Of a stretch of 64,000 nucleotides of DNA, positions 2,570-63,357 are shown piece after piece. The translations under genes were made by a program, and so were the position numbers. Position 1 is the first letter of the stretch, and each line of letters begins with the position of its first letter. The notes beneath the pieces are model-generated. The model ran no database searches. It was not told where the DNA came from and was given only the letters and a program-made list of their open reading frames with translations. Origin of the DNA: an uncultured Sphingobacteriaceae bacterium (lineage in GTDB: Bacteria; Bacteroidota; Bacteroidia; Sphingobacteriales; Sphingobacteriaceae); the NCBI GenBank assembly GCA_964236465.1, contig CAXSBZ010000002.1, forward strand, positions 715 to 64,714, given 5' to 3'.

Positions 2570-2637
2570 GATGCTTCTTTTATCAAGATAAAATTGGAGT
2601 CTCAATTTAAAAAACTAAATTTCTGTTTCTTTTTCGC

Positions 2638-3942: not shown

Positions 3943-3943
3943 G

Positions 3944-4261: not shown

Positions 4262-4333
4262 ATGTAGTTACAAAAAATGTATTACACATTATTTGTATTT
4301 TATATTGATAAAAGAAGCATTGCACATTGAAGA

Positions 4334-16035: not shown

Positions 16036-16053
16036 TTTGGGTTTGGGTTTTTA

Positions 16054-16102
16054 GGTTGATAAAAGAAGCATTGATTTTAATTGGATGCTTCTTTTATCAA
16101 CC
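16054..16102. repeat. palindromic doublet of the family-1 repeat (GGTTGATAAAAGAAGCAT-N13-ATGCTTCTTTTATCAACC)
   Basis: Perfect 18-bp inverted arms, 19 nt downstream of the adhesin stop, followed by a T-run. Could act as a terminator. Confidence 0.9.
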
Positions 16103-16221
16103 TTTTTTTGTAAAAAATATAATTAGAAAGTTCAATAGGATTAGAAATCCTTAGCTCAAAGGACGGGGTTACAAACCCCGACCAGTGGAGAACGATGCCG
16201 ACAGAAGGTTGATGAAAAATA

Positions 16222-16264
16222 GGTTGATAAAAGAAGTATAGCTGTAATACTTCTTTTATCAACC
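16222..16264. repeat. second palindromic doublet of the family-1 repeat (GGTTGATAAAAGAAGTAT-N7-ATACTTCTTTTATCAACC)
   Basis: Perfect 18-bp inverted arms. It differs from the 16054 doublet by a paired C>T / G>A change in both arms. Confidence 0.9.
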
Positions 16265-16283
16265 TAAAATACTAAATTTGATC

Positions 16284-16750: not shown

Positions 16751-16815
16751 TAAAGAAACTGGATTTCATTACCATACTTCTTTTATCAACCTTTTTTCAG
16801 TAACCAATCAAACAA

Positions 16816-19992: not shown

Positions 19993-20016
19993 ATGCTTCT
20001 TTTATCTACCTAAAAT
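19993..20016 (+). repeat. family-1 repeat, full 24-nt form ATGCTTCTTTTATCTACCTAAAAT
   Basis: Exact 14-mer core plus the N4-CTAAAAT tail. It abuts the stop codon of the S53 peptidase gene at 20017. Confidence 0.9.
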
Positions 20017-22578: not shown

Positions 22579-22596
22579 TTATTGCTATCTTCGCCC

Positions 22597-22981: not shown

Positions 22982-22997
22982 TCGGTTTTTTTTATTT

Positions 22998-26544: not shown

Positions 26545-26587
26545 GATTTTAGTACGATAAAAGAAGCATTATGCAATATTGATAATT

Positions 26588-26617
26588 AAGCCGGAGGTTT
26601 TCTTCCGGCTTTTTTTG
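26588..26617 (+). terminator. putative intrinsic terminator
   Basis: AGCCGGA..TCCGGCT hairpin followed by TTTTTT. It is flanked by family-1 repeat copies at 26546-26569 and 26628-26652. Confidence 0.6.
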
Positions 26618-26752
26618 TGAAAGATGAATGCTTCTTTTATGGGGGTAAAAAAAGCATAGCTTAAAAACAGACAAGCTTATCTTATCAATTTAAAACATCC
26701 TCCTAATTTAATACAGATTGATTTGTTAGCTTGCATTAAATTTCAAATCATT

Positions 26753-27787: not shown

Positions 27788-27811
27788 ATGCTTCTTTTAT
27801 CGGGTAAAAAT
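27788..27811 (+). repeat. family-1 repeat ATGCTTCTTTTATCGGGTAAAAAT
   Basis: Exact 14-mer core starting immediately after the TAA stop at 27785-27787. Confidence 0.9.
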
Positions 27812-27963: not shown

Positions 27964-28881
27964 ATGATTGAACTAAACGTAGCTAAATATAAATCTGATT
28001 TTAAAAGGAAGCTTGATAACTTTGCGGATGAGTTAGGAAAATATGTATCCAGCGAAAATGGAGATTGGTCTATAAAAGGTTTTATTGATGTCTATAAAAA
28101 TATTTACACTATTTCTTCGGATACCAAAATTGTTTCTAAAATTCTTGAAATACATATTTTTCCACAGATTTTACATTTTGCCGAAACAATTGGCTACAAA
28201 ATTATTTTAGCTGAAAAACAAAATTGGTATCCAGACTTAACTTTTGTAAACAAAGATTTTGAAAAAATAAAATTTGCGTTAGATATTAAAACAACTTTTA
28301 GAAGGAACAATAAAACTGCAGGTTTTACTTTAGGCAGTCATGGTGGTTACTTTAAGGAGCGTGATAAAGACAAGAATATTCAATTTCCTTACTCAAAGTA
28401 TTCAGGGCACTTTTGCTTAGGCATCATTTATACAAGAACTGATTTTACAAACCATTTTCCAGATACAGAAATTTTCCAAGTTCAGGAGCTACAGGAAGAA
28501 TATGAAAGCCATCCTGATAGAATAGGAGAACGAAAAGTAACTACAGTAGATAACCTTCAATCAATAACATCGGTAATTAAAGAATTTGACTTTTTTGCTG
28601 CTGAAAAATGGAAAATTGCGAGCGATAGTCAAGGTTCTGGGAACACTGCAAATATTGGCTCAATAATCGATATTGATGATTTAAGAAATGAAAATGGAAT
28701 ATTTAGTAAATTAGGAGAAGAATGGTTTGATGAATACTGGATCAATTACGGAACTGTAACAATGCTAAAAGACGGTAAACATGTTAAAATAACTAAACTT
28801 AAAGATTTTTTAGAATTTAAAGGTAGGCAAGACCTTTGGGAAAGTATAGTAAGAAGAACAATAAAAAAAGAAATAAAATGA
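27964..28881 (+). CDS. EcoRV-family type II restriction endonuclease
   Basis: 305 aa. Blocks match my recollection of R.EcoRV. SSDTKIVSKILEIHIF matches GSDTKVLSTIFELF. WYPDLTF and FALDIKTTF match HYPDFTL and IAIDIKTTY (the catalytic D...D-x-K). EKWKIASDSQGSGNTANIGSI matches DKWVIAGDLAGSGNTTNIGSI. WFDEYWINY matches FLDYWRNY. The region is AT-rich. Confidence 0.8.
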   Translation: MIELNVAKYKSDFKRKLDNFADELGKYVSSENGDWSIKGFIDVYKNIYTISSDTKIVSKILEIHIFPQILHFAETIGYKIILAEKQNWYPDLTFVNKDFEKIKFALDIKTTFRRNNKTAGFTLGSHGGYFKERDKDKNIQFPYSKYSGHFCLGIIYTRTDFTNHFPDTEIFQVQELQEEYESHPDRIGERKVTTVDNLQSITSVIKEFDFFAAEKWKIASDSQGSGNTANIGSIIDIDDLRNENGIFSKLGEEWFDEYWINYGTVTMLKDGKHVKITKLKDFLEFKGRQDLWESIVRRTIKKEIK

Positions 28882-29798
28882 AAATTATAGTTCCACCAAT
28901 AAAAAGTCAAGGAATTAAGACCAAACTTGTTCCTTGGATTATGGAACTTGCACCTAAAACAAATGGAAGATGGATAGAGCCATTTTTAGGAACGGGTGTT
29001 GTTGCTTTTAATTCAGGATATAAGAAGGCAATTTTAAATGATACCAACCCTCACATAATCAATTTTTACAAAGGTGTTCAAGAAAAAGTAATTACAGCTC
29101 CTTTAATAAAAAATTATCTTGAATCTGAAGGTGAACTATTAAGGAAAGCAGAAAATAATGGATACGAACATTATTTAAAAGTAAGATCTCGTTTTAATAC
29201 TGAATTTTCACCTTACGATTTTATCTTTCTTTCAAGAGCAGGTTTTAATGGTATGATGCGATTTGGCAAAAAAGGAAATTGGAATATACCTTTTTGTAAA
29301 AAACCTGATCGTTTTGCTAAAGCTTATGTTACTAAAATCACAAATCAGGTTTTAACAGTTTCACAAATTATAAAACCAGAATCAGATTGGCTTTTTTACA
29401 ATAAATCATTTGCAGATATTATTCCACTTGCAACAGCAGACGATATAATTTATTGTGATCCGCCTTATTACGGACGTTACGTTGATTATTTCAATGGTTG
29501 GACTGAAAAGGATGAAGAACTTTTATTCCAACTACTAAGTAATACTAAGGCAAAATTTATTCTTTCTACTTGGCATCACAATGATTGGAGAGAAAATGAA
29601 ATGGTTGAAAAGTATTGGAACAAGTTTAACGTGGTTACAAAAGACCATTTCTACCATTCCGGCGGTAATATTGAAAATAGGAAAACAGTAGTTGAAGCAC
29701 TTGTGTGTAATTTTAATATAGACAATATACAGCAGCACAACCACGAACTGTTTAAAAATCCTAAAACCGAACAATTAGCATTAGAATTATCTACTTAA
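28878..29798 (+). CDS. Dam/M.EcoRV-family N6-adenine DNA methyltransferase (D12 class)
   Basis: The start ATG at 28878 overlaps the R-gene stop as ATGA. The N-terminus is VPPIKSQGIKTKLVP, as in M.EcoRV. EPFLGTGVV is the SAM-binding FxGxG-like block, and IIYCDPPYYGR is the DPPY catalytic motif. Confidence 0.85.
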   Translation: MKIIVPPIKSQGIKTKLVPWIMELAPKTNGRWIEPFLGTGVVAFNSGYKKAILNDTNPHIINFYKGVQEKVITAPLIKNYLESEGELLRKAENNGYEHYLKVRSRFNTEFSPYDFIFLSRAGFNGMMRFGKKGNWNIPFCKKPDRFAKAYVTKITNQVLTVSQIIKPESDWLFYNKSFADIIPLATADDIIYCDPPYYGRYVDYFNGWTEKDEELLFQLLSNTKAKFILSTWHHNDWRENEMVEKYWNKFNVVTKDHFYHSGGNIENRKTVVEALVCNFNIDNIQQHNHELFKNPKTEQLALELST

Positions 29799-30763: not shown

Positions 30764-30800
30764 AAATTGGAAAGCTTAATGCTTCTTTTATCAGCTGAAA

Positions 30801-31076
30801 TTATACATCGTAATGAAACCTGCATTGTATAATCGAACATTTTTGATCCTGACTTTTAGTGCCGGAAATTTGATAAACTAAACGATGTTCGCCCGTTATC
30901 CTTCTCGACCAAAACCCTTTTAAACTAAATTTTAAGGGTTCTGGTTTTCCTAAACCTTTGAATGGTGTTTGTTTGATCGATCTAATTAATTCTCTGATTT
31001 TATCTGCTGTTACATGATCATTTTCCAACCAATATTCAAAATCCTTCCAACCATTCGGCGTGAATTCAGTATTCAT
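30801..31076 (-). CDS. yoeB: Txe/YoeB family type II toxin (second copy)
   Basis: 91 aa with [32 protein letters not shown] and RFHY. Overlaps the upstream antitoxin gene by 4 nt. Confidence 0.85.
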
Positions 31077-31348
31077 TGAGCAACTGCATCTTTATCTTCA
31101 AAAGAATAAGGTATCGTGTTTCCTGATCGAAGCTGATTGATAGATTCCTCCAAATGCTTTCGGTTAGCAGCGGTGGATAATAAATGTGCCGTTTCATTTA
31201 AAGCATTATATTCTTTGATAGAAATGATAACGACTGCATCATCTTCGTCATTATTTCTTGGCACAATCAAAACATCTTGTGATTTGCTTACGCCATCAAA
31301 ATAAGTTTTCATTTTTGTTCGTAATGAGGATATAGTTATTGCTTTCAT
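31073..31348 (-). CDS. yefM: Phd/YefM family antitoxin
   Basis: 91 aa with [32 protein letters not shown] and N-terminal blocks typical of YefM. Confidence 0.8.
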
Positions 31349-32507: not shown

Positions 32508-33800
32508 ATGAACCAAAACTCCATCAAAGTACAAACCGAGCCGCGCGTGCTTTTTGTTGATATGAACAGCTTTTTTGCCCGTTGCGAGCAGCAGGACAAT
32601 TACTGGCTGCGCGGCCGGCCGGTTGGTGTTTGCGTTTATACCGGCAAATACGGTTTCGCGATTGCGCTTTCAGTGGAGGCCAAAAGGATGGGCGTGAAAA
32701 CCGGGATGCGGCTGAACGAAGCTATGAAAATTTGCCCGGAACTGATCCCGGTAGAAAGCCATCCGGAGCGTTACCGGCAATATCATACCAAAATCATCAA
32801 TATTTTGAAGCGTTATTGCCCGGAAGTGATCCCGAAAAGTATTGATGAAGCGATTGTGAACCTTACCAATTACAAAATGGTTTATCCGGATACTGTTTTT
32901 ATCGCCCAAAAAATCAAGGAAGATATTAAGCGCGAAGTGGGCGATTGGCTGACGTGTTCTATCGGCATTGCGCCCAATGCTTTTTTGGCCAAGTTGGGTT
33001 CTGATATCGGTGGTTTTGATGGTTTACAGCTGATTACGACACAGAATATTGATGAAAAACTGGCAGCGTTGAAACTATCTGACCTGCCCGGGATCGGCAA
33101 AAATATGGCTTACCGGCTGGAGCGTGCCGGGATTATCACGCCGCTGCAAATGCGCTACACGGCACCGGAACGGTTGAAAGCGATTTTTAAAAGTATTGAA
33201 GGCGTGTACTGGCATTATCGGTTGAACTTTATTGAAACCGGGATGGCCGTAACGGATTACAAAGGGATGCAGGCGATGCGACAAATTTCTGCCGATAAAA
33301 GAAGCAACCCGGAATATATTGAGCAGTTGTTTCTGACGCTTTGCACCACGCTGGAACGGCGGATGGTGCACCACAATTTTTATTGTAAAAACGTGGCTTT
33401 CGTAGTGAAATACACGGATGAAACATATTGGCAAGATGGTTTTTCGATCACCAACCCAATCCAGGATGCCATTAGTTTGATGCGGATGATCAAAATACGG
33501 GTTAAAAAATTCGAAGAAACCACGCAATCGGCACCGGTTTTGAACAATAAGATTAGTGGTTTGCGCGTGATGGTAACTGATTTTGTGAACAACGGAAAAA
33601 TGCTGTACAGCTTGTTTGAAGATGTAAACCGCGGCGAAACGGCACGCAAAACGATGTATGCCATCCAGCAAAAGTTTGGGGCTGATAAATTGCGCCGCGC
33701 CGTAGAAATTACGGAGGGTAAAGTGGTTGCAGATGTTATTGGTTTCGGCTGTGTGAAGGATTTGACGGAACTGGATTATATAATGCCTGGCGAAAGTTGA
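32508..33800 (+). CDS. Y-family DNA polymerase (Pol IV/UmuC-like)
   Basis: The ATG at 32508 is preferred over the TTG at 32469. VLFVDMNSFFARCEQ (catalytic Asp), SIDEAIV and a helix-hairpin-helix LSDLPGIGKNMAYRLERAGI. Confidence 0.8.
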   Translation: MNQNSIKVQTEPRVLFVDMNSFFARCEQQDNYWLRGRPVGVCVYTGKYGFAIALSVEAKRMGVKTGMRLNEAMKICPELIPVESHPERYRQYHTKIINILKRYCPEVIPKSIDEAIVNLTNYKMVYPDTVFIAQKIKEDIKREVGDWLTCSIGIAPNAFLAKLGSDIGGFDGLQLITTQNIDEKLAALKLSDLPGIGKNMAYRLERAGIITPLQMRYTAPERLKAIFKSIEGVYWHYRLNFIETGMAVTDYKGMQAMRQISADKRSNPEYIEQLFLTLCTTLERRMVHHNFYCKNVAFVVKYTDETYWQDGFSITNPIQDAISLMRMIKIRVKKFEETTQSAPVLNNKISGLRVMVTDFVNNGKMLYSLFEDVNRGETARKTMYAIQQKFGADKLRRAVEITEGKVVADVIGFGCVKDLTELDYIMPGES

Positions 33801-33804
33801 TTTT

Positions 33805-36306
33805 TTATCCGGCAACTTTTTGCGGATATTGATAATTTAACTGTTTACCAACCGCCCGAATAGCACTGTAAGAAACGTCATCGCCCAAAGCAGTTTTAAC
33901 TTCAGTTGAGTTTTCTGGTTGATTTTTGCTGAAGTAATCTTGAATTTTATTGATCGTTTCCTGCGGAAAAATCTGCGTGATTTCCAGTTCATCCAATTCT
34001 ACAAAACATAATAAATGATTTTCAATTGTTCCGATTGTAAGCGAACGTTCAGCAGCAATTTCAGCAATAGTTTTTCCGGATTTAAACAGATTAAACGAAA
34101 GCTGTTTTGTATCAGTTTTTACATTTGGCTTTGCAACTTTTTCAGAAATAAAGTCAGTATTAAAAGGCGTTCTTGCAATGTTTTTGTTTTTACAATAAGC
34201 GTTGATATAAGCTAAAATTTCTTCACCATATTGTTCTACTTTGCTCTTGCCAATACCTTTTATCATTTCCAATTCTACTAAAGTGGAAGGTAATTTTTCA
34301 ACCAAATTGTCTAAAACTTTTTGATGCAAAATAACATAGGCTGGCATATTTTTTTCTTCCGCCAACCGATTTCTCCAGCTGCGTAAGGCGTTAAATAAAT
34401 CAGGGAAATTATATTTTTCGAGATCAGATTCTGGTTTAGACGATTGCGTAGAAGTATTATTTTTCTCCGCAGAAACCACGCTAAAATCAATGGCAGCATT
34501 AGCTTTATTTTGAAGATAAGCCAGTGCCACAAAACCATTTGCGGATGCTTCTTTTATCACCTGAAATTTGATGATTGCTTCCTGTTTTAAACCGTTTAAT
34601 GCAGCCAGAACCACTTTTCGGATGGCTTTGTTATCCGTTTCTACAGCCAGATTTTGGAGTGGTAAAAGAAGCATCGGCTCCAGTTTGGAAACGAAATAAG
34701 TGCTTGCTTTTTTAATTCGCTCCTGCAAAACTTCGTGGTTTTCGGGCAGATGTGGTTGCTGTACTAATTGATTTAATTCATGCTGAAATTTATCTGCAAC
34801 AGCATAAATCTGTTTTTCTGCATCCGCTTTAATTTGATGCAAGGTTTCTGCAAACTTTCCGACCAGCAAATGATCATATTCTTCAGCAACCTTTAACAAC
34901 GCAAAGAACTTGTATTTAATCGGATTGAAATCAAAAAGTTCCAGCAGTAAAACCTGCTGAAATGTTTTCTTAGCTTCGGCCAGGCTGTTTTCCGTCGGCG
35001 CGTTGCGTTCACTTTCGATGGTATAAGTGGCCACCGTTTGATCGGTAATCACACTTTTACTTTTCAGCGGCGAACTTAAAACCATGCCTTCCAGCGTTTT
35101 ACACCGGCTTAAAGCCACATAAACCTGGCCGTGCGTAAAGGCATCTTCGGCATCAATAATGGCTTTTTCAAACGTCAAACCCTGGCTTTTATGGATCGTA
35201 ATTGCCCAGGCCAGCCGCAACGGATATTGCGTAAAACTGCCAACCGTATTTTCATCCACTTCTTTTGTTGAGGCATTCAAAGCGTATTTGATGTTTTGCC
35301 AAACCATCGGCCCAACGCCAATTTCATCCTCGTCGGCAGCGCATTTCACATAAATCACTTCATCTACAATCCGCACAACTTTGCCAATTTTACCATTGTA
35401 AAAAAGCTTGTCGCGCGAGCTGTCGTTCTTCACAAACATAACCTGTGCGCCAATTTTCAGCTCTAAATCAAAAACTGTCGGATACGCATACTCCGGAAAA
35501 TCACCCTGAATAACCGCTTTAAAATGGTGCGATGCTTCTTTTATCGCTGTTAATTTCTGCTCGTTCAGCCGTTGCGCACTGTTGTTGTGCGTGGTTAAAG
35601 TGATGTAGCCGTCCGCTTCATCCGGTTTAAAATCAGGGACAAAACGCCGGTTCAAATCCTCCAAAACCTGCTGCGTAATCCGGTTTTCGCGGATGGCATT
35701 TAAAAGGTCGATAAAAGAAGCATCGGCCTGCCGGTAAATATGTTTCAGTTCGATGTTGACCAGCGGCGTTTGTTTCAGCGCACGGCTGCTAAAAAAATAT
35801 AGGGTATCGTAGTACGGTTTGAGCAATTGCCATTCCTCGTTTTTTGCCACGGGCGAGAGCTGGTGCAGATCGCCAATCATCAGCAACTGCACGCCGCCGA
35901 AAGGTTTGCTACGGTTGCGGTAACGGCGCAGCACCTCGTCCATCGCATCCAAAATATCGGCGCGCACCATGCTAATCTCGTCGATCACCAACAGGTCCAA
36001 ACTTTTGATCAGGTTGATCTTTTCGCGGTTAAATTGCTTTTTAAATTGTGCATTTCGGTCAATGTTTTCCTGATTTGGAATGTACGGCCCAAACGGCAAT
36101 TGGAACAGCGAATGGATAGTTACACCGCCTGCATTGATAGCTGCCACGCCTGTTGGTGCCACCACCGCCATCCGTTTGTGCGAAGTTTTTTTGAGTTGAT
36201 GCAGAAAAGTGGTTTTGCCCGTGCCCGCTTTTCCCGTCAAAAAAATATTGCGGTTGGTATGCTGTACAAAGTTGTTGGCGAGATCAAGTTGCGGGTTTTG
36301 CTGCAT
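33805..36306 (-). CDS. PIF1/RecD-family SF1 helicase with C-terminal HRDC and HTH domains
   Basis: 833 aa. Walker A GKAGTGKTT, Walker B LVIDEISMV, ITIHKSQG, an HRDC-like segment (LFNALRSWRNRLAEEKNMPAYVILHQKVL...IKGIGKSKVEQYG) and an HTH (KTIAEIAAERSLTIGTIENHL). Confidence 0.8.
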   Translation of the reverse strand: MQQNPQLDLANNFVQHTNRNIFLTGKAGTGKTTFLHQLKKTSHKRMAVVAPTGVAAINAGGVTIHSLFQLPFGPYIPNQENIDRNAQFKKQFNREKINLIKSLDLLVIDEISMVRADILDAMDEVLRRYRNRSKPFGGVQLLMIGDLHQLSPVAKNEEWQLLKPYYDTLYFFSSRALKQTPLVNIELKHIYRQADASFIDLLNAIRENRITQQVLEDLNRRFVPDFKPDEADGYITLTTHNNSAQRLNEQKLTAIKEASHHFKAVIQGDFPEYAYPTVFDLELKIGAQVMFVKNDSSRDKLFYNGKIGKVVRIVDEVIYVKCAADEDEIGVGPMVWQNIKYALNASTKEVDENTVGSFTQYPLRLAWAITIHKSQGLTFEKAIIDAEDAFTHGQVYVALSRCKTLEGMVLSSPLKSKSVITDQTVATYTIESERNAPTENSLAEAKKTFQQVLLLELFDFNPIKYKFFALLKVAEEYDHLLVGKFAETLHQIKADAEKQIYAVADKFQHELNQLVQQPHLPENHEVLQERIKKASTYFVSKLEPMLLLPLQNLAVETDNKAIRKVVLAALNGLKQEAIIKFQVIKEASANGFVALAYLQNKANAAIDFSVVSAEKNNTSTQSSKPESDLEKYNFPDLFNALRSWRNRLAEEKNMPAYVILHQKVLDNLVEKLPSTLVELEMIKGIGKSKVEQYGEEILAYINAYCKNKNIARTPFNTDFISEKVAKPNVKTDTKQLSFNLFKSGKTIAEIAAERSLTIGTIENHLLCFVELDELEITQIFPQETINKIQDYFSKNQPENSTEVKTALGDDVSYSAIRAVGKQLNYQYPQKVAG

Positions 36307-36378: not shown

Positions 36379-36948
36379 TTAATTTATTACTTTTTCAAGA
36401 TCAATTATAAACTCATTAAAGTATTTACAATTAGTTTTTAAAATATTAAAATTTAACAAATCAAAAATTTCTGCATTGTGTGTTTCAGAATATTGCTTCA
36501 CAGATTTTCTGGTTGCTTTAATTAATACCTCTTTGGGTTCAAAGATTTTCATAGGATCAGAAACTTTAGGAATAGAGCAGCCATAATAGTTGTTGAAGGC
36601 TTCAATATCAGCAAAAATCAAAGCCTCAATTTCAAAAATATGAAGTAAGAAAATACCTTTCTTATCAACAATATTATTGGAATAATTAAATGTTTCCTGA
36701 CGTTTTAATTTTGCACCACGATCTGTTTCCAAAGCATCCAGATCACGAATAAATATAATTAAGTCAGGATTTTGAGTTTCATATTCAATACGAAGAATTC
36801 TCCTGAACAACTTTCTATTATCCAGCATACTGCCGTTAATATCTTTTAAAAGCGTTACAAAACTAAGGTTTTGATAATTCTTGGATAAAAGGTTTTTAAT
36901 CGCATTAGTATCATTTGGAGCTTCTCCTACCAGGCCAACTATAATCAT
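36379..36948 (-). CDS. DUF4276-like (predicted Toprim/OLD-type nuclease) protein
   Basis: 189 aa. The N-terminal IIVGLVGEAPND (conserved Glu) and IIFIRDLDALETD (DxD) fit a Toprim-like pattern. It starts 1 nt after the ATPase stop. Very AT-rich. Confidence 0.65.
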   Translation of the reverse strand: MIIVGLVGEAPNDTNAIKNLLSKNYQNLSFVTLLKDINGSMLDNRKLFRRILRIEYETQNPDLIIFIRDLDALETDRGAKLKRQETFNYSNNIVDKKGIFLLHIFEIEALIFADIEAFNNYYGCSIPKVSDPMKIFEPKEVLIKATRKSVKQYSETHNAEIFDLLNFNILKTNCKYFNEFIIDLEKVIN

Positions 36949-36949
36949 A

Positions 36950-38164
36950 TTAATCTGCTGGTTCTAAATCAGAGTGAACCCAGTAATCGCTTAAAAAACC
37001 TTCATCCTGCATATACATCTGGCCTTTTTTAATTTGCCTTTCAGTAAGGTGATTTAATTGTGTTCCTAAATGCTGATCATAATTGCAGATGATAATCCGA
37101 TCCAGTTCATCAGCATCTAAAATATTTAAAACTTGCGGTGAATGTGTTGTTAAAATGATTTGCTTTTCTCTGGATTGCTCTTTTATGAAAAGCATTAACT
37201 TGTGTAGTTGGTGTGGATGAATGCCAAGTTCGGGTTCTTCGAAAAGAATAATTCTTTTTCGCCTTTCTGAAACAGAATTTTCTCGGTTAGAATTAAATAA
37301 CATTATGTCAGAAAGATCATAACTTGTTATTTCAGAAATGATATAGAATAAACGCTTTGTTCCATCTGATAAATTATCATATGGAACCCATTCACTATTT
37401 ATATTAAATTCCAAGTAAAGATTTTTAATATCTATTCTTTTGTTTTCGTTACTAAAGTATAAATTAAAATTTGGGCTAATGCGAATTTTTTTTATATCAG
37501 TATAATCAGCTAATAGCATAGATACATTTACAAGAAATTCATCAATATCTAAAACGTGTTTTTCTATTTCTTTAATATCCAATTCATCTTTTTTAGATAG
37601 TTGACTAATTATTTTAAAATATATTGAAAATGAAAACAAACTTTCTCCCTTAAAGGTTGATATTTGAGGTCTAAAGCCATTAAATGTATAGGAAATAGAA
37701 GTAGGTGTATCAACAATTTCTTGTTCAATTGGTATTCCAAACTTGAGGAAGTAGGGCTTATAGTTCAACCTCCATCTTATTATATCTAAAATTGGATCAT
37801 TAACACTTGTAAATTCTTCTTCTTTTTCACCTAAAACAATTAATTTGATAATAGGATTATTTCTTTTTTTGAAATCTTGAACCTCTAATAAATCTCTTTC
37901 ATTTTCTTCAATTATGAATTTGTGTTCTTTTTCATCCACAAGTAAGATTTCAGCTTTATAAGAGTTTAAATTCTCGAAGTCAAAGTTAAGTACGTTAGCT
38001 AAGAACTTAAGAAAGTTAGTTTTGCCAGAACCGTTTTGACCAATAATAATATTTAGTCCCGATCGAAAATTAGTCTGAGTATCAATAATAGATTTGTAAT
38101 TCTGTAACCTAACCTCTTTTAAAAATACTTCAGCATCCTGATTTGCTTTTTTAGCTTCATTCAT
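36950..38164 (-). CDS. ABC/AAA_15-AAA_21-type ATPase (OLD/AriA/AbiLi-like)
   Basis: ATG at 38164. Walker A GQNGSGKT, an ABC-signature-like LSDGTKRLF, Walker B IILFEEPELGIHP and H-loop ILTTHSP, with a long insert between the Walker motifs. Very AT-rich. Confidence 0.8.
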   Translation of the reverse strand: MNEAKKANQDAEVFLKEVRLQNYKSIIDTQTNFRSGLNIIIGQNGSGKTNFLKFLANVLNFDFENLNSYKAEILLVDEKEHKFIIEENERDLLEVQDFKKRNNPIIKLIVLGEKEEEFTSVNDPILDIIRWRLNYKPYFLKFGIPIEQEIVDTPTSISYTFNGFRPQISTFKGESLFSFSIYFKIISQLSKKDELDIKEIEKHVLDIDEFLVNVSMLLADYTDIKKIRISPNFNLYFSNENKRIDIKNLYLEFNINSEWVPYDNLSDGTKRLFYIISEITSYDLSDIMLFNSNRENSVSERRKRIILFEEPELGIHPHQLHKLMLFIKEQSREKQIILTTHSPQVLNILDADELDRIIICNYDQHLGTQLNHLTERQIKKGQMYMQDEGFLSDYWVHSDLEPAD

Positions 38165-38197
38165 AACAATCAAAAATACGATTTAGCTTTATAATCA

Positions 38198-39085
38198 CTA
38201 AACATATTTCTTCAACGCACTCTTCACCTGCCCCAAATAGCCCGTTCCAAACAAATTCAAATACAGCAACAACGGATATAAATTCCACAAATCCACACGT
38301 TGCTGCCAGCCTTGTTGCAAGGAAAATCCTTCTTGGTAAGCTTGATAAAAATCAGCACTGAAACCACCAAAAAGATGTGTCATGGCCAAATCAAACTCGC
38401 GGAAACCGAAACTTACAGCCGGATCAATTAAATAAGGCTGTCCTTCACTGCTGATTAAATAATTGCCGCCCCATAAATCGCCGTGAATCAAGGCTGGTTT
38501 CTCTTCCTCAAAAAACCCGCCCAGCTTTTGGTATAATTTCTCAAAATCCGACACCAATTTTAGGTCAATAAAAGAAGCATCGAAAGCTAATTTCACCATC
38601 GGTTTCAAGCGTTCTTCTACAAAAAACGATTTCCAAGTTTGATGTTTTTGGTTCGATTGCGGCAAAGAACCCATGTAATTATCCTTTTCAAAACCGAAAT
38701 TCGGAGCAGTATTTTGGTGTAGTTGCGCCAATTGCAAACCTAATACTTGCATGGAAGCAGCTGTTTTTGTTCCGGTTTCGATGTATTCCATCAGCAAAAA
38801 ACTGTTGTAACCAATATGCCCGGTTGCAATTACTTCCGGCACCGCAACCGTTTTTGTTTTTCGGATCGCTTCCAAACCTTCCGCTTCCAATTCAAACATC
38901 TTCGGAAACTGCTGTGCATTGTTCAGCTTTAAAATGAAAAAACCTACAGCGGTTTGCAAACGATAAACTTCATTGATGCTGCCGCCCGAAACTTCGGTAA
39001 TTTCATGAATGCTGCTTTTACCGCCTAAGTTTTCGTGTAAAACCTGTTCCAGTTCAATCTTAAATTCTGCTGTAAAACTTTTCAT
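38198..39085 (-). CDS. fructosamine kinase family protein
   Basis: 295 aa. The [10 protein letters not shown] nucleotide-binding region and [10 protein letters not shown] catalytic loop are typical of the FN3K/YniA family. Confidence 0.8.
38557..38580 (-). repeat. full 24-nt family-1 repeat embedded in frame inside the fructosamine kinase CDS
   Basis: The plus strand reads ATTTTAGGTCAATAAAAGAAGCAT. In gene orientation it is GAT GCT TCT TTT ATT GAC CTA AAA T, translated D-A-S-F-I-D-L-K. Confidence 0.85.
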
Positions 39086-42324: not shown

Positions 42325-42388
42325 GACTTTTAGTAAAGAAATCTATCCTTAAAAATAGGTGGTAAAAGAAGCATCGTTTTTTGCCCAT

Positions 42389-42580
42389 TGTCATGCCGAA
42401 CTTGTTTCGGTATCTTACTATAAAAGTTCTTAATTTGCCTAAGTAATTTTGAAACAAGTTCAGAATGACAAATTTTGCGTTGTCATTTCGACCGTAGGGA
42501 GAAATCCTATTTCAACTATAAAAGTTTCTTTTTCGCTTCGATGAAGATCTCTCCCTACGGTCGGGATGACAGAAAAGCTG
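42389..42580. repeat. cluster of hairpin repeats: two family-3 units (42389-42415, 42452-42478) and a family-2 inverted pair (42492-42517, 42555-42580)
   Basis: TGTCATGCCGAACTTGTTTCGGTATC and GAAACAAGTTCAGAATGACA belong to family 3. GTCATTTCGACCGTAGGGAGAAATCC and AGATCTCTCCCTACGGTCGGGATGAC belong to family 2. Confidence 0.8.
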
Positions 42581-42609: not shown

Positions 42610-42939
42610 TCAAAACAAATGCCACCGCTTTTTCACTTGCACATAAATCCCGTCTTGGCGCATTTCCACCGGAAAAACATCAATATAATCACCTTGTCCG
42701 GCTGCGCCTTTTCCGGTTTCTAGATTGTATTGATAACGGTGTAGCGGACAAATAATTTGTCCGTTTTCGCACCAGCCGCCAGCCAGTTCGCCTCCAGCGT
42801 GCGGACATTTTGAAGAAACTGCATATAGTTCTCCTTCAAAACCAACTAAACAAATATTTTGGTTTCCGACTTTGATTTTTCGGATGAATGCTTCTTTTAC
42901 CGGTATATTTTCGGCAACTTTTATCCATTCCAACATCAA
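42610..42939 (-). CDS. Rieske [2Fe-2S] domain protein (NirD-like size)
   Basis: 109 aa. CPHAGG and CPLHRYQY form the CxH...CxxH Rieske ligand pattern. Confidence 0.8.
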   Translation of the reverse strand: MMLEWIKVAENIPVKEAFIRKIKVGNQNICLVGFEGELYAVSSKCPHAGGELAGGWCENGQIICPLHRYQYNLETGKGAAGQGDYIDVFPVEMRQDGIYVQVKKRWHLF

Positions 42940-43703
42940 TATTCTACTTTTAAATTCAGCAGCTGCGGCGTTTTTACGATTTCCTCCAAAGTGCTGTTCA
43001 AAGTCAGCTGCTTTTTGTCCGGAGAAAGTTTTGCACGTACATTTCCGGCCTTTTTTACCGGCCGCGGAAAACGCATTGTTATGCTGTAAGGCATTTCAAT
43101 CAGTGCAGCTTTTGCCATATTAAACATGGCTTCGTTTTGCTTAAAATATTTCCTGAACTTCACCGTATCCACTTTTCGGGTAAAATGCTTGCTGCCGATG
43201 TCGTAATTAAAATAATCTTCGTTGATGCCTAAGCCTCCACTGCTTGCTCCGGTTTGCATTACCTGAGGTTCGCTGATTAACTGTCCGATTTTTTGCTGCT
43301 GCGCAATGTTGGAAATATGCGTTAAAAAATATTTTACTTCCTTGGCGCTCTTGGCTTCGTACTGCACATTAACCAGCATCTGGTTATTTTTTAGGTTCAT
43401 TTTCAGGTGCAGCAGTGTAGCACGGGACAAATCAGTCTGGTCATTACTTAGTTTTTTTCGTTCGGCTTCTGTTAAATCACTATAAAAATTAATAGCTGTA
43501 TCCTTCTGCATCAAATACGAGGGTGTTTGCTTTACCGAATCCGGCAGCAAGTTGGAAAGCACAGAAACCGCCTTGCCCAAATTAAAACGGTAATCGATTT
43601 TGCAGGCACCATTTTTCTGAAAAACGTAATGCTCCTCCACGTTCATACACGAAAAAAGTAGTGATAAAAGAAGCATCAACATTCCAAAGTAAAGTTTCTT
43701 CAT
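42936..43703 (-). CDS. hypothetical lipoprotein
   Basis: Start at MKKLYFGMLMLLLSLLFSC (lipobox). No recognisable family. Overlaps the Rieske gene by 4 nt. Confidence 0.5.
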   Translation of the reverse strand: MKKLYFGMLMLLLSLLFSCMNVEEHYVFQKNGACKIDYRFNLGKAVSVLSNLLPDSVKQTPSYLMQKDTAINFYSDLTEAERKKLSNDQTDLSRATLLHLKMNLKNNQMLVNVQYEAKSAKEVKYFLTHISNIAQQQKIGQLISEPQVMQTGASSGGLGINEDYFNYDIGSKHFTRKVDTVKFRKYFKQNEAMFNMAKAALIEMPYSITMRFPRPVKKAGNVRAKLSPDKKQLTLNSTLEEIVKTPQLLNLKVEY

Positions 43704-43848
43704 GCAAGTTGTTTTTGGGGGTAATGATACAAATATGCAGTATTTATTAAACTGAATGTCAGGAAATTTAATCGCCAAAAACCAATACAAGCTGAATGTT
43801 TATATTTGCGACTTGGAACTGACATTCGCACAACCGGCAACCGATACG

Positions 43849-46371: not shown

Positions 46372-46468
46372 GGGAAATTAAAGCCGATGCTTCTTTTACA
46401 GGTGTTTTTTCAGTACGATTTTATATGGGTAAAAGAAGCATTTGCACTTATTTAAAGTCCAACTGCAA

Positions 46469-46492
46469 ATGCTTCTTTTATCGGCCTAATTT
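46469..46492 (+). repeat. family-1 repeat ATGCTTCTTTTATCGGCCTAATTT overlapping the recQ stop codon
   Basis: Exact 14-mer core. The CTA at 46486-46488 is the reverse complement of the recQ TAG stop. Two more copies lie at 46387-46400 and 46417-46441. Confidence 0.9.
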
Positions 46493-50044: not shown

Positions 50045-50091
50045 GTTTTAGGGTGATAAAAGAAGCATCAGCTGATACTTCTTTTATCAGC
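50045..50091. repeat. palindromic doublet of the family-1 repeat centred on CAGCTG
   Basis: GATAAAAGAAGCATCAGCTGATACTTCTTTTATC, preceded by GTTTTAGGGT (tail of the 24-nt form). Lies between convergent genes. Confidence 0.85.
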
Positions 50092-50968: not shown

Positions 50969-50991
50969 AATGCTTCTTTTATCAACCTAAA
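50969..50991 (+). repeat. family-1 repeat ATGCTTCTTTTATCAACCTAAAT
   Basis: Exact 14-mer core. Its 3' end abuts the first DnaA box at 50991. Confidence 0.9.
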
Positions 50992-52812: not shown

Positions 52813-52836
52813 ATGCTTCTTTTATCGACCTAAAAT
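52813..52836 (+). repeat. family-1 repeat, consensus form ATGCTTCTTTTATCGACCTAAAAT
   Basis: Exact core plus tail. A reverse copy lies at 52886-52909. Confidence 0.9.
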
Positions 52837-55291: not shown

Positions 55292-56272
55292 ATGCCTGTT
55301 TTAATTTATGCGGAAAATACGAAAGGCCGGTTTAAAAAAGCCGTGTTGGAAACTGTTTGTTATGCCAAAGCGGTTGCAGATCAACTCAATACAACCGTGA
55401 TTGCTTTATCGATTGGTGAGGTTTTGCAGGAGGAACTGAAGAAGCTCGGAAATTATGGCATAAAAAGAGTATTGAACGTTTCCGGTCAGCAAAAAACTTT
55501 GATCAATCAGGCTTACGCTTCGATTATTGCTGAGGTTGCTGAAAAGGAAAATACAGATGTGGTTATCCTTTCCAACTCCTTGTCTGGCAGAGGTTTAGTT
55601 GCACGGATTGCTGTAAAGCTGCAAGCCGGACTGGCGGATGGTGCGACAGATCTGCCGGAAACAGCAAATGGAAAATTCATCATCAAAAAAACCGCTTTTT
55701 CGGGTCGAGTCGCCGCTGTGGTGGAACTGACTTCAGTCAAAAAAGTGATTTCCCTCAACTCAAATGTTTTCAAACTCATTGAAAATAAAGCAGTTGTCGA
55801 GGTGGAAGATTTTATGCCGATAAAAGAAGCATCAAATTTTAACATCTTGGTGAAAGATATTTTACAGTCAACCGAAAAAGTTTCTTTACCGGATGCTGAA
55901 ATTATTGTCTCGGCAGGAAAAGGTTTAAAAGGGCCGGAAAACTGGAAAATGGTGGAAGATCTGGCCGAGGCATTGGATGCAGCAGTTGCCTGCACCAAAC
56001 CGGTTTCCGATGCCGGCTGGCGGCCGCACGAGGAGCATGTTGGGCAAACCGGAATTTCTGTGAGCCCGAATTTGTATATCGCTATTGGTATTTCGGGTGC
56101 CATCCAGCATTTGGCCGGTGTGAGTGCTTCAAAAGTGATCGTAGTGATCAACAAAGATCCGGAAGCACCGTTTTTCAAAGTGGCCGATTACGGTATTGTA
56201 GGCGATGCGTTTGAGATCGTACCAAAATTAACAGAAGCTATAAAAAATTATAAAGCACTGGCTTTAAGCTAA
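55292..56272 (+). CDS. etfA: electron transfer flavoprotein subunit alpha
   Basis: 326 aa. The C-terminal FAD-binding block is VGQTGISVSPNLYIAIGISGAIQHLAG. Confidence 0.9.
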   Translation: MPVLIYAENTKGRFKKAVLETVCYAKAVADQLNTTVIALSIGEVLQEELKKLGNYGIKRVLNVSGQQKTLINQAYASIIAEVAEKENTDVVILSNSLSGRGLVARIAVKLQAGLADGATDLPETANGKFIIKKTAFSGRVAAVVELTSVKKVISLNSNVFKLIENKAVVEVEDFMPIKEASNFNILVKDILQSTEKVSLPDAEIIVSAGKGLKGPENWKMVEDLAEALDAAVACTKPVSDAGWRPHEEHVGQTGISVSPNLYIAIGISGAIQHLAGVSASKVIVVINKDPEAPFFKVADYGIVGDAFEIVPKLTEAIKNYKALALS

Positions 56273-58256: not shown

Positions 58257-58300
58257 ATTTTTGTGTGATAAAAGAAGCATTGAGTATCTTAATGCACGTT

Positions 58301-63327: not shown

Positions 63328-63357
63328 ATACTGTTTTTATGCCGGTAAAAACAGTAT
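63328..63357. repeat. palindrome of the diverged family-1 subtype (ATACTGTTTTTA-TGCCGG-TAAAAACAGTAT)
   Basis: 12-bp perfect inverted arms. Same subtype as 6333-6356, 21801-21824 and 55281-55305. Confidence 0.8.

What the first reader, a model, noticed from the sequence alone, without database searches (positions are those of the whole stretch)
34545..35723. Three exact copies of the 14-mer inside one helicase ORF, and recurrent peptide readings (IKEAS, DASFID) across unrelated genes
In the minus-strand helicase gene, the copies at 34545 and 35532 are translated as I-K-E-A-S (QVIKEASANG and TAIKEASHHF). The oppositely oriented copy at 35710 is translated as D-A-S-F-I-D (RQADASFIDLL).

The same readings recur elsewhere:
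- PIKEAS in etfA (55819).
- DVKEAS in the histidine kinase (62558).
- STIKEVS in the adhesin (14427).
- PVKEAF in the Rieske protein (42888).
- FDASFIDL in fructosamine kinase (38567).
- ANASFT in the cyclase (59945).
- VDTSFT in the kinase (62184).
- A further frame gives ADKRSN in the Y-family polymerase (33294).

Recurrence of one DNA word in different proteins and frames points to selection or spread at the DNA level that the proteins tolerate. USS copies in Haemophilus ORFs are documented to behave this way.
Basis: seen in the sequence. Interest (0 to 1): 0.65.

Follow-up and report, generated by a model that had tools for sequence, protein, structure and literature searches.

The report
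Uptake-sequence-like DNA word in Mucilaginibacter
The three 14-mers in the helicase gene belong to a DNA word of about 26 bases repeated roughly once per kilobase in a group of soil Bacteroidota, kept by selection on the DNA rather than the proteins, and it resembles the DNA uptake sequences known so far only from Haemophilus and Neisseria relatives.

Summary

The helicase copies are a small part of a larger pattern:
- The window holds 21 exact copies (0 expected) and 57 within two mismatches (1.2 expected).
- The full element is about 26 nt: R-ATRCTKYTTTTAYC-N5-WWWW-T.
- 15 of the 21 exact copies lie in the 10% of the window that is intergenic.
- Inverted pairs form strong hairpins and some are followed by U-runs. 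Single copies do not fold.

Selection acts on the DNA. Resampling synonymous codons predicts 0.06 exact coding copies, against 6 observed. Relatives keep identical rare codons at shared sites, while outgroups encode the same residues with other codons. No indels mark the sites.

The word family occurs at 0.85-1.07 copies per kb in six lineages of a Mucilaginibacter-like clade, with shifts in the commonest variant. It is absent from the nearest outgroups and from two low-GC islands in the window.

The best explanation is a DNA-uptake-sequence analogue in Bacteroidota (confidence about 0.45). Uptake itself is untested. Uptake sequences are described only in Pasteurellaceae and Neisseriaceae.

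The parts
33805..36306 (-). Helicase ORF (833 aa; PIF1-like, HRDC, HTH_40) holding three exact copies and one near copy
34545..34558 (+). Exact copy, antisense to the helicase gene, read V-I-K-E-A-S; shared by some relatives (L082 exact, L081 one mismatch)
35532..35545 (+). Exact copy, antisense, read A-I-K-E-A-S; variable loop; gained only in the window's lineage (11 of 18 nt differ from the majority of the five relatives shown; no indel)
35710..35723 (-). Exact copy, sense, read D-A-S-F-I; lies on the conserved D..FI.LLN; relatives carry the ATACTTC (TS) or ATACTGT (TV) variants at the same codons; the W-tract is encoded by CTT TTA AAT
34661..34674 (-). One-mismatch copy ATGCTTCTTTTACC, sense, read M-L-L-L-P; the codons ATG CTT CTT TTA CC are identical in all six word-bearing lineages
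33294..33307 (-). One-mismatch copy in the Y-family polymerase gene (D-K-R-S-N), conserved in L001 and L081-L084; a TGT-variant copy lies at 32890 in the same gene
38567..38580 (-). One-mismatch copy in fructosamine kinase (DASFI); exact in L081; the position is unconserved in PDB homologues
55819..55832 (-). Exact copy in etfA (PIKEAS), in the unconserved inter-domain stretch
2571..2584 (+). Exact copy near the 5' end of the DinB_2 ORF (DKRSI)
43663..43676 (-). Exact copy near the 5' end of ORF 42936-43790 (MLLLS, hydrophobic N-terminus); orthologous copies in L081, L082 and L084
1300..1313 (+). Exact intergenic copy, 21 nt after a stop codon
3571..3584 (+). Exact intergenic copy flanking the HigB-type toxin module
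4307..4320 (-). Exact intergenic copy on the other flank of the HigB-type module
16053..16103 (.). Head-to-head pair (exact copies at 16058- and 16085+), 19-nt perfect arms, 13-nt loop, followed by U7, 22 nt after the adhesin stop codon: terminator-like
   Evidence: (-30.5 kcal/mol, z -7.85)
16220..16266 (.). Head-to-head pair of ATACTTCTTTTATC copies, 20-nt perfect arms; terminator-like on the minus strand
   Evidence: (z -7.99)
19993..20006 (+). Exact copy between convergent genes (16 and 10 nt from the two stop codons)
26556..26569 (-). Exact copy 11 nt after a stop codon, upstream of a separate GC-rich terminator hairpin at 26588-26611
26628..26657 (.). Tail-to-tail pair of near copies (26628+, 26644-); weak fold
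27788..27801 (+). Exact copy starting directly after a stop codon; boundary of the word-free EcoRV restriction-modification island
30779..30792 (+). Exact copy 15 nt after a stop codon
32420..32433 (-). Exact copy in a divergent promoter region; the orthologous site is kept in all six lineages with different core variants (ATGCTTC, ATACTGT, ATGCTGT, GCGCTTC, ATACTTC)
46375..46482 (.). Three copies (46387+, 46428-, 46469+ exact) between convergent genes downstream of recQ; 46430-46480 forms a 20-nt-arm hairpin
50054..50089 (.). Head-to-head pair (50055- exact, 50075+ one mismatch) between convergent genes, followed by CUCU8: terminator-like on the plus strand
50970..50983 (+). Exact copy in the divergent region upstream of dnaB
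52813..52826 (+). Exact copy 36 nt after the dnaB stop codon; near copy at 52896-
58267..58280 (-). Exact copy 10 nt after a stop codon; two near copies at 58349 and 58451 in the same convergent spacer
63328..63357 (.). Tail-to-tail pair of the TGT variant (ATACTGTTTTTAYS), forming a 13-bp hairpin
   Evidence: z -4.1

Best explanation
What it is. The three helicase 14-mers are ordinary members of a genome-wide, clade-specific, non-palindromic DNA word of about 26 nt. It has a 14-nt core AT[G/A]CT[TC|GT]TTTTA[T/C]C, preceded by a purine. A 5-nt spacer (R-n-C-n-W) follows, then a four-base A/T-only tract (A-run about 64%, T-run about 25%) and a T.

Most likely function. It is the counterpart, in a Mucilaginibacter-like clade of Bacteroidota, of the DNA uptake sequences of Pasteurellaceae (USS) and Neisseriaceae (DUS). 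The proposed mechanism has four steps:
1. A surface component of a DNA-uptake machine binds double-stranded DNA carrying the word more readily. The A/T tract may help bending or melting.
2. Conspecific fragments are therefore taken up and recombined more often.
3. Over time, any mutation that improves a near-match is driven to spread, wherever the encoded protein or the intergenic function tolerates it.
4. Inverted pairs at gene ends have been co-opted as intrinsic terminators.

Shown here:
- hyperabundance
- the extended architecture
- constraint at the DNA level in coding sequence
- use of tolerant frames and positions
- origin by substitution rather than insertion
- enrichment in intergenic DNA and at 3' ends, with hairpin pairs
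- sharing across the clade with shifts in variant
- absence from outgroups and from two low-GC islands

Inferred only: uptake bias, a receptor, competence in these organisms, and the drive itself.
For: Abundance.
- 21 exact and 57 near copies in 64 kb, against 0 and 1.2 expected.
- Adding the 10 further TGT-variant copies (12 in all) gives 67 family copies, about 2.5% of the window at 24 nt each.
- The same density, 0.92 per kb, holds in 356 kb of independent metagenome contigs.
- Published uptake-sequence densities are similar: 1,471 per H. influenzae genome and 1,892 per N. meningitidis genome, and up to about 2% of a chromosome.

Architecture.
- In 177 copies chosen by the core alone, 171 have only A/T at positions 20-23, where 11% is expected by chance.
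- This core-plus-A/T-tract layout resembles the H. influenzae USS (my own knowledge of Mell et al. 2012, listed).

Orientation.
- Strand split is 37:30. This is compatible with 1:1 (p = 0.46) and rejects 3:1 (p = 0.0006).

Intergenic and terminator association.
- Density in intergenic DNA is 23 times (exact) and 11 times (family) the coding density.
- 9 of 10 convergent spacers are occupied, 9 of 22 tandem and 6 of 10 divergent.
- Pairs fold with z of -6 to -8, and two are followed by U-runs.
- In the wider set, 33 of 57 head-to-head pairs have a T-run on one side.
- This matches published uptake sequences, where about half lie in terminators.

Coding copies.
- They show constraint at the DNA level.
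- They sit in tolerant frames and at poorly conserved residues, as Findlay and Redfield found.

Foreign DNA.
- There are no copies in the GC 0.34 EcoRV restriction-modification island or in the AAA_21/DUF4276 module.
- This matches the published finding that genes lacking homologues also lack uptake sequences.

Clade distribution.
- Six lineages with 71-100% helicase identity carry the word at 0.85-1.07 copies per kb.
- The commonest variant shifts: in L084, ATACTTC is about as frequent as ATGCTTC.
- The 59% relative, Rubrolithibacter, Pedobacter and Dyadobacter have none.

Plausibility in the phylum.
- Riemerella columbina prefers its own DNA in competition assays, although no motif was found there.
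Against: - No experiment or gene links these organisms to natural competence. No paper connects Mucilaginibacter with transformation or uptake sequences.
- No receptor or competence gene was seen in the window.
- The intergenic bias is stronger than in H. influenzae. Here 29% of exact copies are in ORFs, against 65%, 49% and 34.5% in three published genomes.
- Only 64 kb plus short loci were examined. Orientation relative to the replichores and the contrast between core and accessory genes therefore rest on small samples.
- The island argument rests on two islands.
- Spacing is only marginally more even than random (CV 0.67 against 0.85, p about 0.055).
- Any functional protein-binding site under selection would produce the same frozen codons.
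Confidence: 0.45

Rival explanations
1. The word is a binding site for an abundant chromosomal protein unrelated to uptake. Examples would be a nucleoid-organising factor, a Chi-like signal that protects the cell's own DNA, or a self tag read by a defence or repair system. Each site would be kept by ordinary selection.
For: - Frozen synonymous codons and a site conserved for a long time at an orthologous intergenic position are what site-by-site selection predicts.
- The long asymmetric core plus an A/T tract suits a protein that bends DNA.
- Spacing is slightly more even than random.
Against: - Known sites of these kinds are much shorter or much rarer (my own knowledge: Chi 5-8 nt, KOPS 8 nt, matS, parS, NBS). 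Chi and KOPS are skewed by strand, whereas here the split is 37:30.
- This reading gives no reason for a 10- to 20-fold excess in intergenic DNA, for crowding at gene 3' ends, or for two or three copies in one spacer.
- The absence from low-GC islands fits slow accumulation better than a requirement of each locus.
Confidence: 0.23
2. The word is a self-propagating short repeat with no benefit to the cell. It would spread by biased repair or short-patch gene conversion, in the manner proposed for the cyanobacterial HIP1 octamer, for example through a sequence-specific nickase whose cuts are repaired from word-bearing templates.
For: - Copies arise without indels inside genes.
- The 35532 site differs from the majority of relatives at 11 of 18 nt, while the flanks are conserved. 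This looks like replacement of the whole stretch at once.
- Discrete co-varying variants (TTC and TGT) interconvert at one orthologous site.
Against: - No candidate enzyme lies in the window.
- HIP1-type words are short palindromes tied to methyltransferases (my own knowledge), whereas this word is long and asymmetric.
- The variable loop at 35532 differs in every lineage, so multiple point changes are not surprising.
- A purely selfish converter would not obviously avoid low-GC islands.
Confidence: 0.14
3. The word's primary role is in transcription termination or in the RNA 3' end. The coding copies would be by-products.
For: - 10 of the 14 clearly intergenic exact copies lie within 36 nt of a stop codon.
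- 9 of 10 convergent spacers are occupied.
- Pairs form strong hairpins, some followed by U-runs.
Against: - Single copies, which are the majority, do not fold better than shuffled sequence (z from -1.6 to +1.4).
- Both orientations occur after genes.
- Separate GC-rich terminators follow some copies, for example 26588-26611.
- 6 of 10 divergent promoter regions carry copies.
- This reading does not explain the 29 coding copies with frozen rare codons.
- 24 of 57 pairs have no T-run on either side.
Confidence: 0.08
4. The word is a REP/REPIN- or MITE-like mobile element, moved by a Y1 (IS200/RAYT-type) transposase such as the one encoded at 61342-61803.
For: - A 153-aa IS200-like Y1 transposase gene is present.
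- The word forms inverted doublets in intergenic DNA, as REPINs do.
Against: - The transposase gene is flanked by its own GTAG-plus-hairpin repeats (CAACGGGTTTTAACCCGTTG). These are unrelated to the word and found nowhere else in the window. Its two flanking spacers hold no copy of the word.
- The gene passes the NCBIfam IS200 model (79 bits, cut-off 55) and fails the RayT model (28 bits, cut-off 80).
- Single copies have no hairpin.
- 43% of family copies are inside genes, in frame and without indels, at positions aligned across lineages.
Confidence: 0.06
5. The recurrence is protein-level convergence or chance: common peptides that happen to be encoded the same way.
For: D..FI.LLN in the helicase is conserved at the protein level far outside the clade.
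Against: - Shuffles give 0 exact copies.
- With the proteins held fixed, synonymous resampling gives 0.057 against 6 observed.
- Outgroups use other codons for the shared residues.
- 15 of 21 exact copies are non-coding.
Confidence: 0.01

Closest known systems
Pasteurellaceae uptake signal sequence (USS; Hin type AAGTGCGGT, Apl type ACAAGCGGT, with A/T-rich flanking segments)
   Same: - Non-palindromic core followed at a fixed distance by an A/T-only tract.
- About one copy per kb, in both orientations.
- Coding copies sit in tolerant frames and at weakly conserved residues.
- Inverted pairs occur at gene ends.
- Shared by related species, with more than one type.
- Missing from foreign genes.

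   Different: - The sequence is unrelated and the core is longer (14 against 9 nt).
- The core itself is A/T-rich and strongly biased towards pyrimidines on one strand.
- The host is Bacteroidota rather than Gammaproteobacteria.
- The intergenic bias is much stronger (29% of exact copies in ORFs against 65% or 49%).
- Uptake bias and the predicted minor-pilin receptor (ComN) are untested here.
Neisseriaceae DNA uptake sequence (DUS, ATGCCGTCTGAA and its dialects)
   Same: - Hyperabundant word of 12-14 nt.
- Mostly intergenic (34.5% of N. meningitidis DUS are in ORFs).
- Frequent inverted pairs act as terminators.
- Dialect-like variation between related lineages.
- Depleted in recently acquired DNA.
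   Different: - There is no shared sequence beyond a chance ATGC start, and the conserved CTG core of DUS dialects (my own knowledge of Frye et al. 2013, listed) is absent.
- The present word has an A/T-tract extension.
- The ComP receptor and type IV pili were not examined.
- The phylum is different.
Cyanobacterial HIP1 (highly iterated palindrome GCGATCGC)
   Same: - Hyperabundant short word.
- Found inside genes in several frames.
- Spread by substitution.
- Specific to a clade.
- Function unresolved.
   Different: - HIP1 is an 8-nt perfect palindrome linked to DNA methyltransferases (my own knowledge).
- The present word is about 26 nt, asymmetric, concentrated in intergenic DNA, and has an A/T-tract extension.
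REP / REPIN elements and their RAYT transposases
   Same: - Short intergenic repeats, often as inverted doublets near gene ends.
- A Y1 transposase gene lies in the window.
   Different: - REPs are hairpin-forming and strictly extragenic, and they flank their RAYT gene.
- Here single copies do not fold, 43% of copies are in ORFs, and the Y1 gene has different flanking hairpins and fails the RayT model.
Chi and KOPS/AIMS-type polar chromosomal words
   Same: Over-represented oligomers that are tolerated inside genes.
   Different: - Those words are 5-8 nt, occur about once per 5-10 kb, and are strongly co-oriented with replication (my own knowledge).
- Here the word is 14-26 nt, occurs about once per kb, and is split 37:30 between strands.

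Membership tests
DNA uptake enhancing sequences (functional class: USS and DUS) | Hundreds to thousands of copies per genome, far above expectation | tested here: met
   - 21 exact and 67 family copies in 64 kb, against 0 and about 1 expected.
- 0.92 copies per kb over a further 356 kb.
- The whole-genome count is extrapolated, not measured.
DNA uptake enhancing sequences (functional class: USS and DUS) | Competent cells preferentially take up DNA carrying the word | not testable with these tools
   This needs uptake or transformation assays. No literature exists for this clade.
DNA uptake enhancing sequences (functional class: USS and DUS) | A cognate surface receptor (ComP in Neisseria; ComN predicted in Pasteurellaceae) | not tested
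   No pilin or competence gene was seen among the window's 56 or so genes. The rest of the genome was not available.
DNA uptake enhancing sequences (functional class: USS and DUS) | Both orientations; inverted pairs at gene ends that can act as terminators | tested here: met
   - Strand split 37:30.
- Pair hairpins with z of -6 to -8, two with U-runs.
- 33 of 57 pairs have a flanking T-run.
- Termination itself was not measured.
DNA uptake enhancing sequences (functional class: USS and DUS) | Coding copies restricted to tolerant frames and weakly conserved positions, and arising by substitution | tested here: met
   - Frame counts.
- No indels.
- Unconserved positions in EtfA and fructosamine kinase.
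- Codon-level excess.
DNA uptake enhancing sequences (functional class: USS and DUS) | Shared by related species with dialects; absent from outgroups | tested here: met
   Six lineages carry it and four outgroups lack it. The ATACTTC and TGT variants change in frequency between lineages.
DNA uptake enhancing sequences (functional class: USS and DUS) | Depleted in recently acquired DNA | tested here: inconclusive
   Two GC 0.34 islands of about 3 kb hold no copy. Two islands are too few, and other word-free gaps lie in the adhesin and recQ.
Neisseriaceae DUS | Sequence ATGCCGTCTGAA or a dialect with the conserved CTG core | tested here: not met
   The core is ATGCTTCTTTTATC. The dominant form has no CTG core. 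Only the minority TGT variant contains CTG.
Pasteurellaceae USS | Core AAGTGCGGT or ACAAGCGGT | tested here: not met
   The core is unrelated. Only the core-plus-A/T-tract layout is alike.
REP/REPIN-RAYT | Hairpin-forming extragenic repeat that flanks a RAYT gene | tested here: not met
   - Single copies do not fold.
- 29 of 67 copies are in ORFs.
- The Y1 gene scores 28 bits on the RayT model (cut-off 80), and its flanks lack the word.
HIP1-type iterated palindromes | Short perfect palindrome | tested here: not met
   The core is asymmetric and differs from its reverse complement.
Chi / KOPS polar words | Short (5-8 nt) and strongly skewed by strand | tested here: not met
   The word is 14-26 nt and split 37:30, which rejects a 3:1 skew (p = 0.0006). 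The position of the replichore is unknown, so this rests on the assumption that the window does not span the origin or terminus.

The most novel reading that the evidence does not exclude
This is a third, independently evolved DNA-uptake-sequence system and the first outside Proteobacteria. A clade of soil Sphingobacteriaceae (Mucilaginibacter-like) would take up conspecific DNA selectively by recognising a 26-nt word. The receptor would have to differ from the ComP and ComN minor pilins. Natural transformation would then be shaping the genomes of a common group of soil Bacteroidota.
Probability: 0.4. Interest if true: 0.88.

Novelty: new variant of a known kind. Interest (0 to 1): 0.72.

Why it matters
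Uptake sequences are the clearest genomic sign of self-preferring natural transformation. After more than 40 years they are known from only two proteobacterial families.

In Bacteroidota, competition assays show that Riemerella columbina prefers its own DNA, but a k-mer search there found only low-complexity A/T words. The word described here is a sharp, testable candidate. It has a defined 26-nt sequence, natural variants, and a cultured relative (Mucilaginibacter arboris HMF7410).

If uptake is confirmed, four things follow:
- It gives a third independent origin for studying how uptake bias and genomes co-evolve.
- It points to a new type of receptor.
- It provides a practical handle for genetic work in Sphingobacteriaceae, since adding the word to constructs should help transformation.
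- It provides a marker of recombining populations in soil metagenomes.

If uptake is not confirmed, a 26-nt word that fills about 2.5% of the DNA and overrides codon choice still needs a new explanation.

Tried and rejected
1. Genome-contig scan with the helicase alignment. Close relatives were then fetched one at a time with the look-up of encoding contigs. The look-up for M. arboris (P0016) found no record, so whether that cultured strain carries the word is unknown.

2. Viral-contig scan for the 14-mer. It gave 120 stretches, and every listed one had a single match, which is the level of chance background. It was limited by rows and gave no evidence about phages.

3. Rfam at gathering thresholds. 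Nothing overlaps the word. The only match is RNase P RNA.

4. Sigma-70-type promoter scan. Counts equal those of shuffled sequence. The word also does not resemble the Bacteroidota -33/-7 consensus (my own knowledge).

5. RNA folding of single copies. No structure beyond shuffles, so an RNA-element reading was dropped for single copies.

6. Link to a RAYT/REP system through the Y1 transposase at 61342-61803. Rejected because the flanking repeats are different and the RayT score is below the cut-off.

7. A bias towards genome-maintenance genes, suggested by three copies in a helicase. Not supported: recQ and dnaB have no internal copy, and the helicase excess is modest once near copies are counted.

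8. The '8-codon insertion' idea. Rejected, since there are no indels at the helicase sites.

9. Literature search for the word itself and for uptake sequences in Mucilaginibacter or Sphingobacteria. No prior description was found in the searchable library. Subscription journals are not covered.

10. Restriction sites. The window's EcoRV-type system recognises GATATC (my own knowledge of EcoRV), which is not part of the word.

Full report
**1. The observation**

The 14-mer is ATGCTTCTTTTATC. Exact copies lie at 34545(+), 35532(+) and 35710(-). All three are inside ORF 33805-36306(-), an 833-aa protein with PIF1-like, HRDC and HTH_40 domains. A fourth copy with one mismatch lies at 34661(-).

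The gene reads these four sites as VIKEAS, AIKEAS, DASFI and MLLLP.

The window holds 21 exact copies, where shuffles give none. It holds 57 copies within two mismatches, where shuffles give 1.16.

**2. Anatomy**

Aligning the copies shows that the word is longer than 14 nt. The layout is:
- a purine at position -1
- the core AT[G/A]CT[T/G][C/T]TTTTA[T/C]C
- a spacer R-n-C-n-W
- a four-base tract that is A/T-only in 171 of 177 copies chosen by the core alone (11% expected)
- a T

The tract is an A-run in about 64% of copies and a T-run in about 25%.

Positions 6 and 7 co-vary. TC is the main form and GT a minority form (ATRCTGTTTTTAYS, 12 copies in the window). Counting this variant, the window has 67 copies, which at 24 nt each is about 2.5% of its bases.

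No other hyperabundant word is present.

**3. Where the copies are**

Intergenic DNA makes up 9.85% of the window after removing spurious small ORFs and adding RNase P RNA. It holds 15 of 21 exact copies and 36 of 67 family copies. The densities per kb are:

| Copies | Intergenic | Coding | Ratio |
|---|---|---|---|
| Exact | 2.38 | 0.10 | 23 |
| Family | 5.7 | 0.50 | 11 |

Occupancy depends on the type of spacer:

| Spacer type | Occupied | Copies per kb |
|---|---|---|
| Convergent | 9 of 10 | 9.3 |
| Tandem | 9 of 22 | 5.8 |
| Divergent | 6 of 10 | 3.2 |

Ten of the 14 clearly intergenic exact copies lie within 36 nt of a stop codon, in either orientation. The strand split is 37:30.

Inverted pairs at 16053-16103, 16220-16266, 50054-50089 and 46430-46480 form hairpins with z-scores of -6 to -8, and two are followed by U-runs. 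Single copies do not fold better than shuffles. Separate GC-rich terminators exist next to some single copies.

**4. DNA-level constraint in genes**

Synonymous resampling. With the window's protein sequences held fixed and synonymous codons redrawn from the window's own usage, expected and observed copy numbers are:

| Mismatches allowed | Expected | Observed |
|---|---|---|
| 0 | 0.057 | 6 |
| 1 | 0.46 | 14 |
| 2 | 3.5 | 25 |

 The word requires rare codons: ATA 12%, CTT 10%, AGA 12%.

Frames. Use follows amino-acid tolerance:
- DASFI-type, 13 copies
- IKEAS-type, 8
- DKRS-type, 5
- MLLL-type, 4
- Cys-Phe-Phe-Tyr frame, none in credible genes
- the frame that contains TAA, none

Codon alignment of the helicase across six word-bearing lineages and three outgroups:
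- Site 35710. All word-bearing genomes use GAT-RCT-KYT-TTT-ATC-GAC-CTT-TTA-AAT. The AS, TS and TV residue pairs correspond exactly to the ATGCTTC, ATACTTC and ATACTGT variants. Outgroups encode the conserved F-I-x-L-L-N with other codons.
- Site 34661. ATG CTT CTT TTA CC is invariant in the clade, while neighbouring codons drift.
- Site 35532. This is a variable loop that differs in every lineage and matches the word only in the window. The closest protein homologue, P0002, reads IKEAT.
- None of these sites has an indel.

Other genes. The EtfA PIKEAS and fructosamine-kinase DASFID positions are unconserved in homologues with solved structures.

**5. Phylogenetic range**

The helicase's best named homologues are Mucilaginibacter proteins. 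One is M. arboris HMF7410, a cultured strain, at 76% identity.

| Source | Helicase identity | Copies per kb (two mismatches or fewer) |
|---|---|---|
| Window | 100% | 0.89 |
| L001 | 84% | 0.86 |
| L081 | 83% | 0.98 |
| L082 | 76% | 1.07 |
| L083 | 74% | 0.85 |
| L084 | 71% | 0.85 |

Many sites are orthologous between these lineages. In L084, ATACTTC is about as common as ATGCTTC.

One intergenic site, window 32420, is kept in all six lineages with five different core variants.

The closest outgroup (L085, 59%), Rubrolithibacter, Pedobacter glucosidilyticus and Dyadobacter have no such word and no other hyperabundant word.

A metagenome scan for perfect head-to-head pairs returned 46 stretches totalling 356 kb. 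Their overall density is 0.92 copies per kb.

**6. Foreign DNA**

The word-free stretches longer than 2.5 kb include two GC 0.34 islands:
- an EcoRV-type endonuclease with a D12 methyltransferase (27964-29798)
- an AAA_21/DUF4276 module (36379-38173)

This is suggestive but rests on two cases.

**7. Interpretation**

The features found here are:
- a long asymmetric core with a phased A/T tract
- about one copy per kb, neutral in orientation
- intergenic and terminator-pair enrichment
- coding copies in tolerant frames and at weakly conserved residues
- origin by substitution
- dialect-like variation across a clade
- absence from outgroups and from likely foreign DNA

This is the profile described for the uptake sequences of Pasteurellaceae and Neisseriaceae. 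Those remain the only two families in which such sequences are recognised.

In Bacteroidota, R. columbina prefers its own DNA, but no specific word was found there.

I therefore rank an uptake-sequence analogue first, at 0.45. Uptake, a receptor and competence are inferred, not shown.

**8. Rivals**

| Rival | Confidence | Main points |
|---|---|---|
| Chromosomal protein-binding or self-marking site | 0.23 | Explains the frozen codons. Does not explain the intergenic crowding, the multiple copies per spacer or the lack of strand skew. |
| Selfish repeat spread by conversion, HIP1-like | 0.14 | Fits the block-like change at 35532 and the discrete variants. No enzyme is known, and the word is not palindromic. 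|
| Terminator or RNA element as the primary role | 0.08 | Fits the pairs only. |
| REP/REPIN moved by the IS200-like Y1 transposase at 61342-61803 | 0.06 | That gene has its own unrelated GTAG-plus-hairpin flanks and fails the RayT model. |
| Protein convergence or chance | 0.01 | Refuted. |

**9. The helicase itself**

Three exact copies in 2.5 kb is unusual against the coding background (P about 0.002, a test chosen after the fact). Three points reduce its significance:
- One copy sits on a peptide that already fitted the word (D..FI.LLN).
- Counting near copies, the excess is about threefold (P about 0.04).
- recQ and dnaB in the same window have no internal copy.

I do not read it as evidence for a bias towards genome-maintenance genes.

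**10. Limits**

- Only 64 kb plus loci of 15-22 kb and 356 kb of metagenome stretches were analysed.
- Gene calls are ORF-based and checked with Pfam.
- The position of the replichore is unknown.
- The genome-contig scan was limited by rows.
- The searchable literature excludes most subscription journals.

Noticed in passing
window 22597-22985 (+): Bacterial RNase P RNA class A (262 bits, full length). The 123-aa ORF 22585-22956(-) on the opposite strand is therefore spurious. Upstream, at 22494-22571, lies a 38-nt imperfect inverted repeat.
   Followed up: partly
window 27964-29798 (+): An EcoRV-family restriction endonuclease (E 4e-104) followed by a D12-class N6-adenine methyltransferase. 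The segment has GC 0.34, holds no copy of the word, and is bounded by exact copies at 27788 and 30779. It looks like a recently inserted restriction-modification cassette.
   Followed up: partly
window 61342-61803 (-) with flanks 61821-61840 and 61918-61937: A 153-aa IS200-like Y1 transposase sits between a response-regulator gene and a histidine-kinase gene. Upstream are two copies of a GTAG/CTAC-adjacent palindrome (CAACGGGTTTTAACCCGTTG) that are found nowhere else in the window. It passes the IS200 model and fails the RayT model.
   Followed up: yes
window 42388-42571: Two further inverted-repeat elements unrelated to the word (TTGTCATGCCGAACTTGTTTC.. and TGTCATTTCGACCGTAGGGAGAAATC..) lie in a 285-bp convergent spacer. 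They may belong to a different family of REP-like repeats.
   Followed up: no
window 16036-16815: A 780-bp gene-poor, low-GC spacer after the adhesin gene carries five copies of the word, including two perfect 19-20-nt-arm hairpins 120 nt apart. Only short doubtful ORFs lie there.
   Followed up: partly
window 3640-4261 and 30801-31348: Toxin-antitoxin modules (HigB-like plus partner; YoeB/YefM) are each bracketed by copies of the word. The YoeB/YefM pair sits at a different position in L083, and a HicA module replaces the AAA_21/DUF4276 module in L081. Small cassettes therefore swap between word-flanked spacers.
   Followed up: partly
window 36379-38173 (-): An AAA_21/AAA_15 ATPase plus a DUF4276 protein, which looks like a defence module. 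It has GC 0.34 and no copy of the word. It is present at the same place in L082 and L084, absent from L083, and replaced in L081 by a differently placed AAA_15 ATPase gene and a HicA toxin pair.
   Followed up: partly
window 32420 / L001 6950 / L081 13878 / L082 13852 / L083 13852 / L084 13827: Positions 6-7 of the core co-vary (TC or GT, intermediates rare), and the two forms replace each other at one orthologous site. Why two discrete forms coexist is unexplained.
   Followed up: partly
window 35526-35549: The word at 35532 differs from the majority of the five relatives shown at 11 of 18 nt, while both flanks are conserved. This raises the possibility that the stretch was replaced as a block rather than by stepwise mutation.
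   Followed up: partly
L001 (JBPBPL010000014.1): This metagenome-assembled genome is labelled Janthinobacterium lividum. It encodes a helicase 84% identical to the window's, is syntenic with it, and carries the same word. The label looks wrong, and the contig is Sphingobacteriaceae-like.
   Followed up: partly
window 6466-16035 (+): A 3,189-aa protein made of PKD-like repeats with an fn3 domain, GC about 0.49-0.50, which is well above the window mean. It holds only five degenerate copies of the word and has two word-free stretches of 2.6 and 4.1 kb.
   Followed up: no
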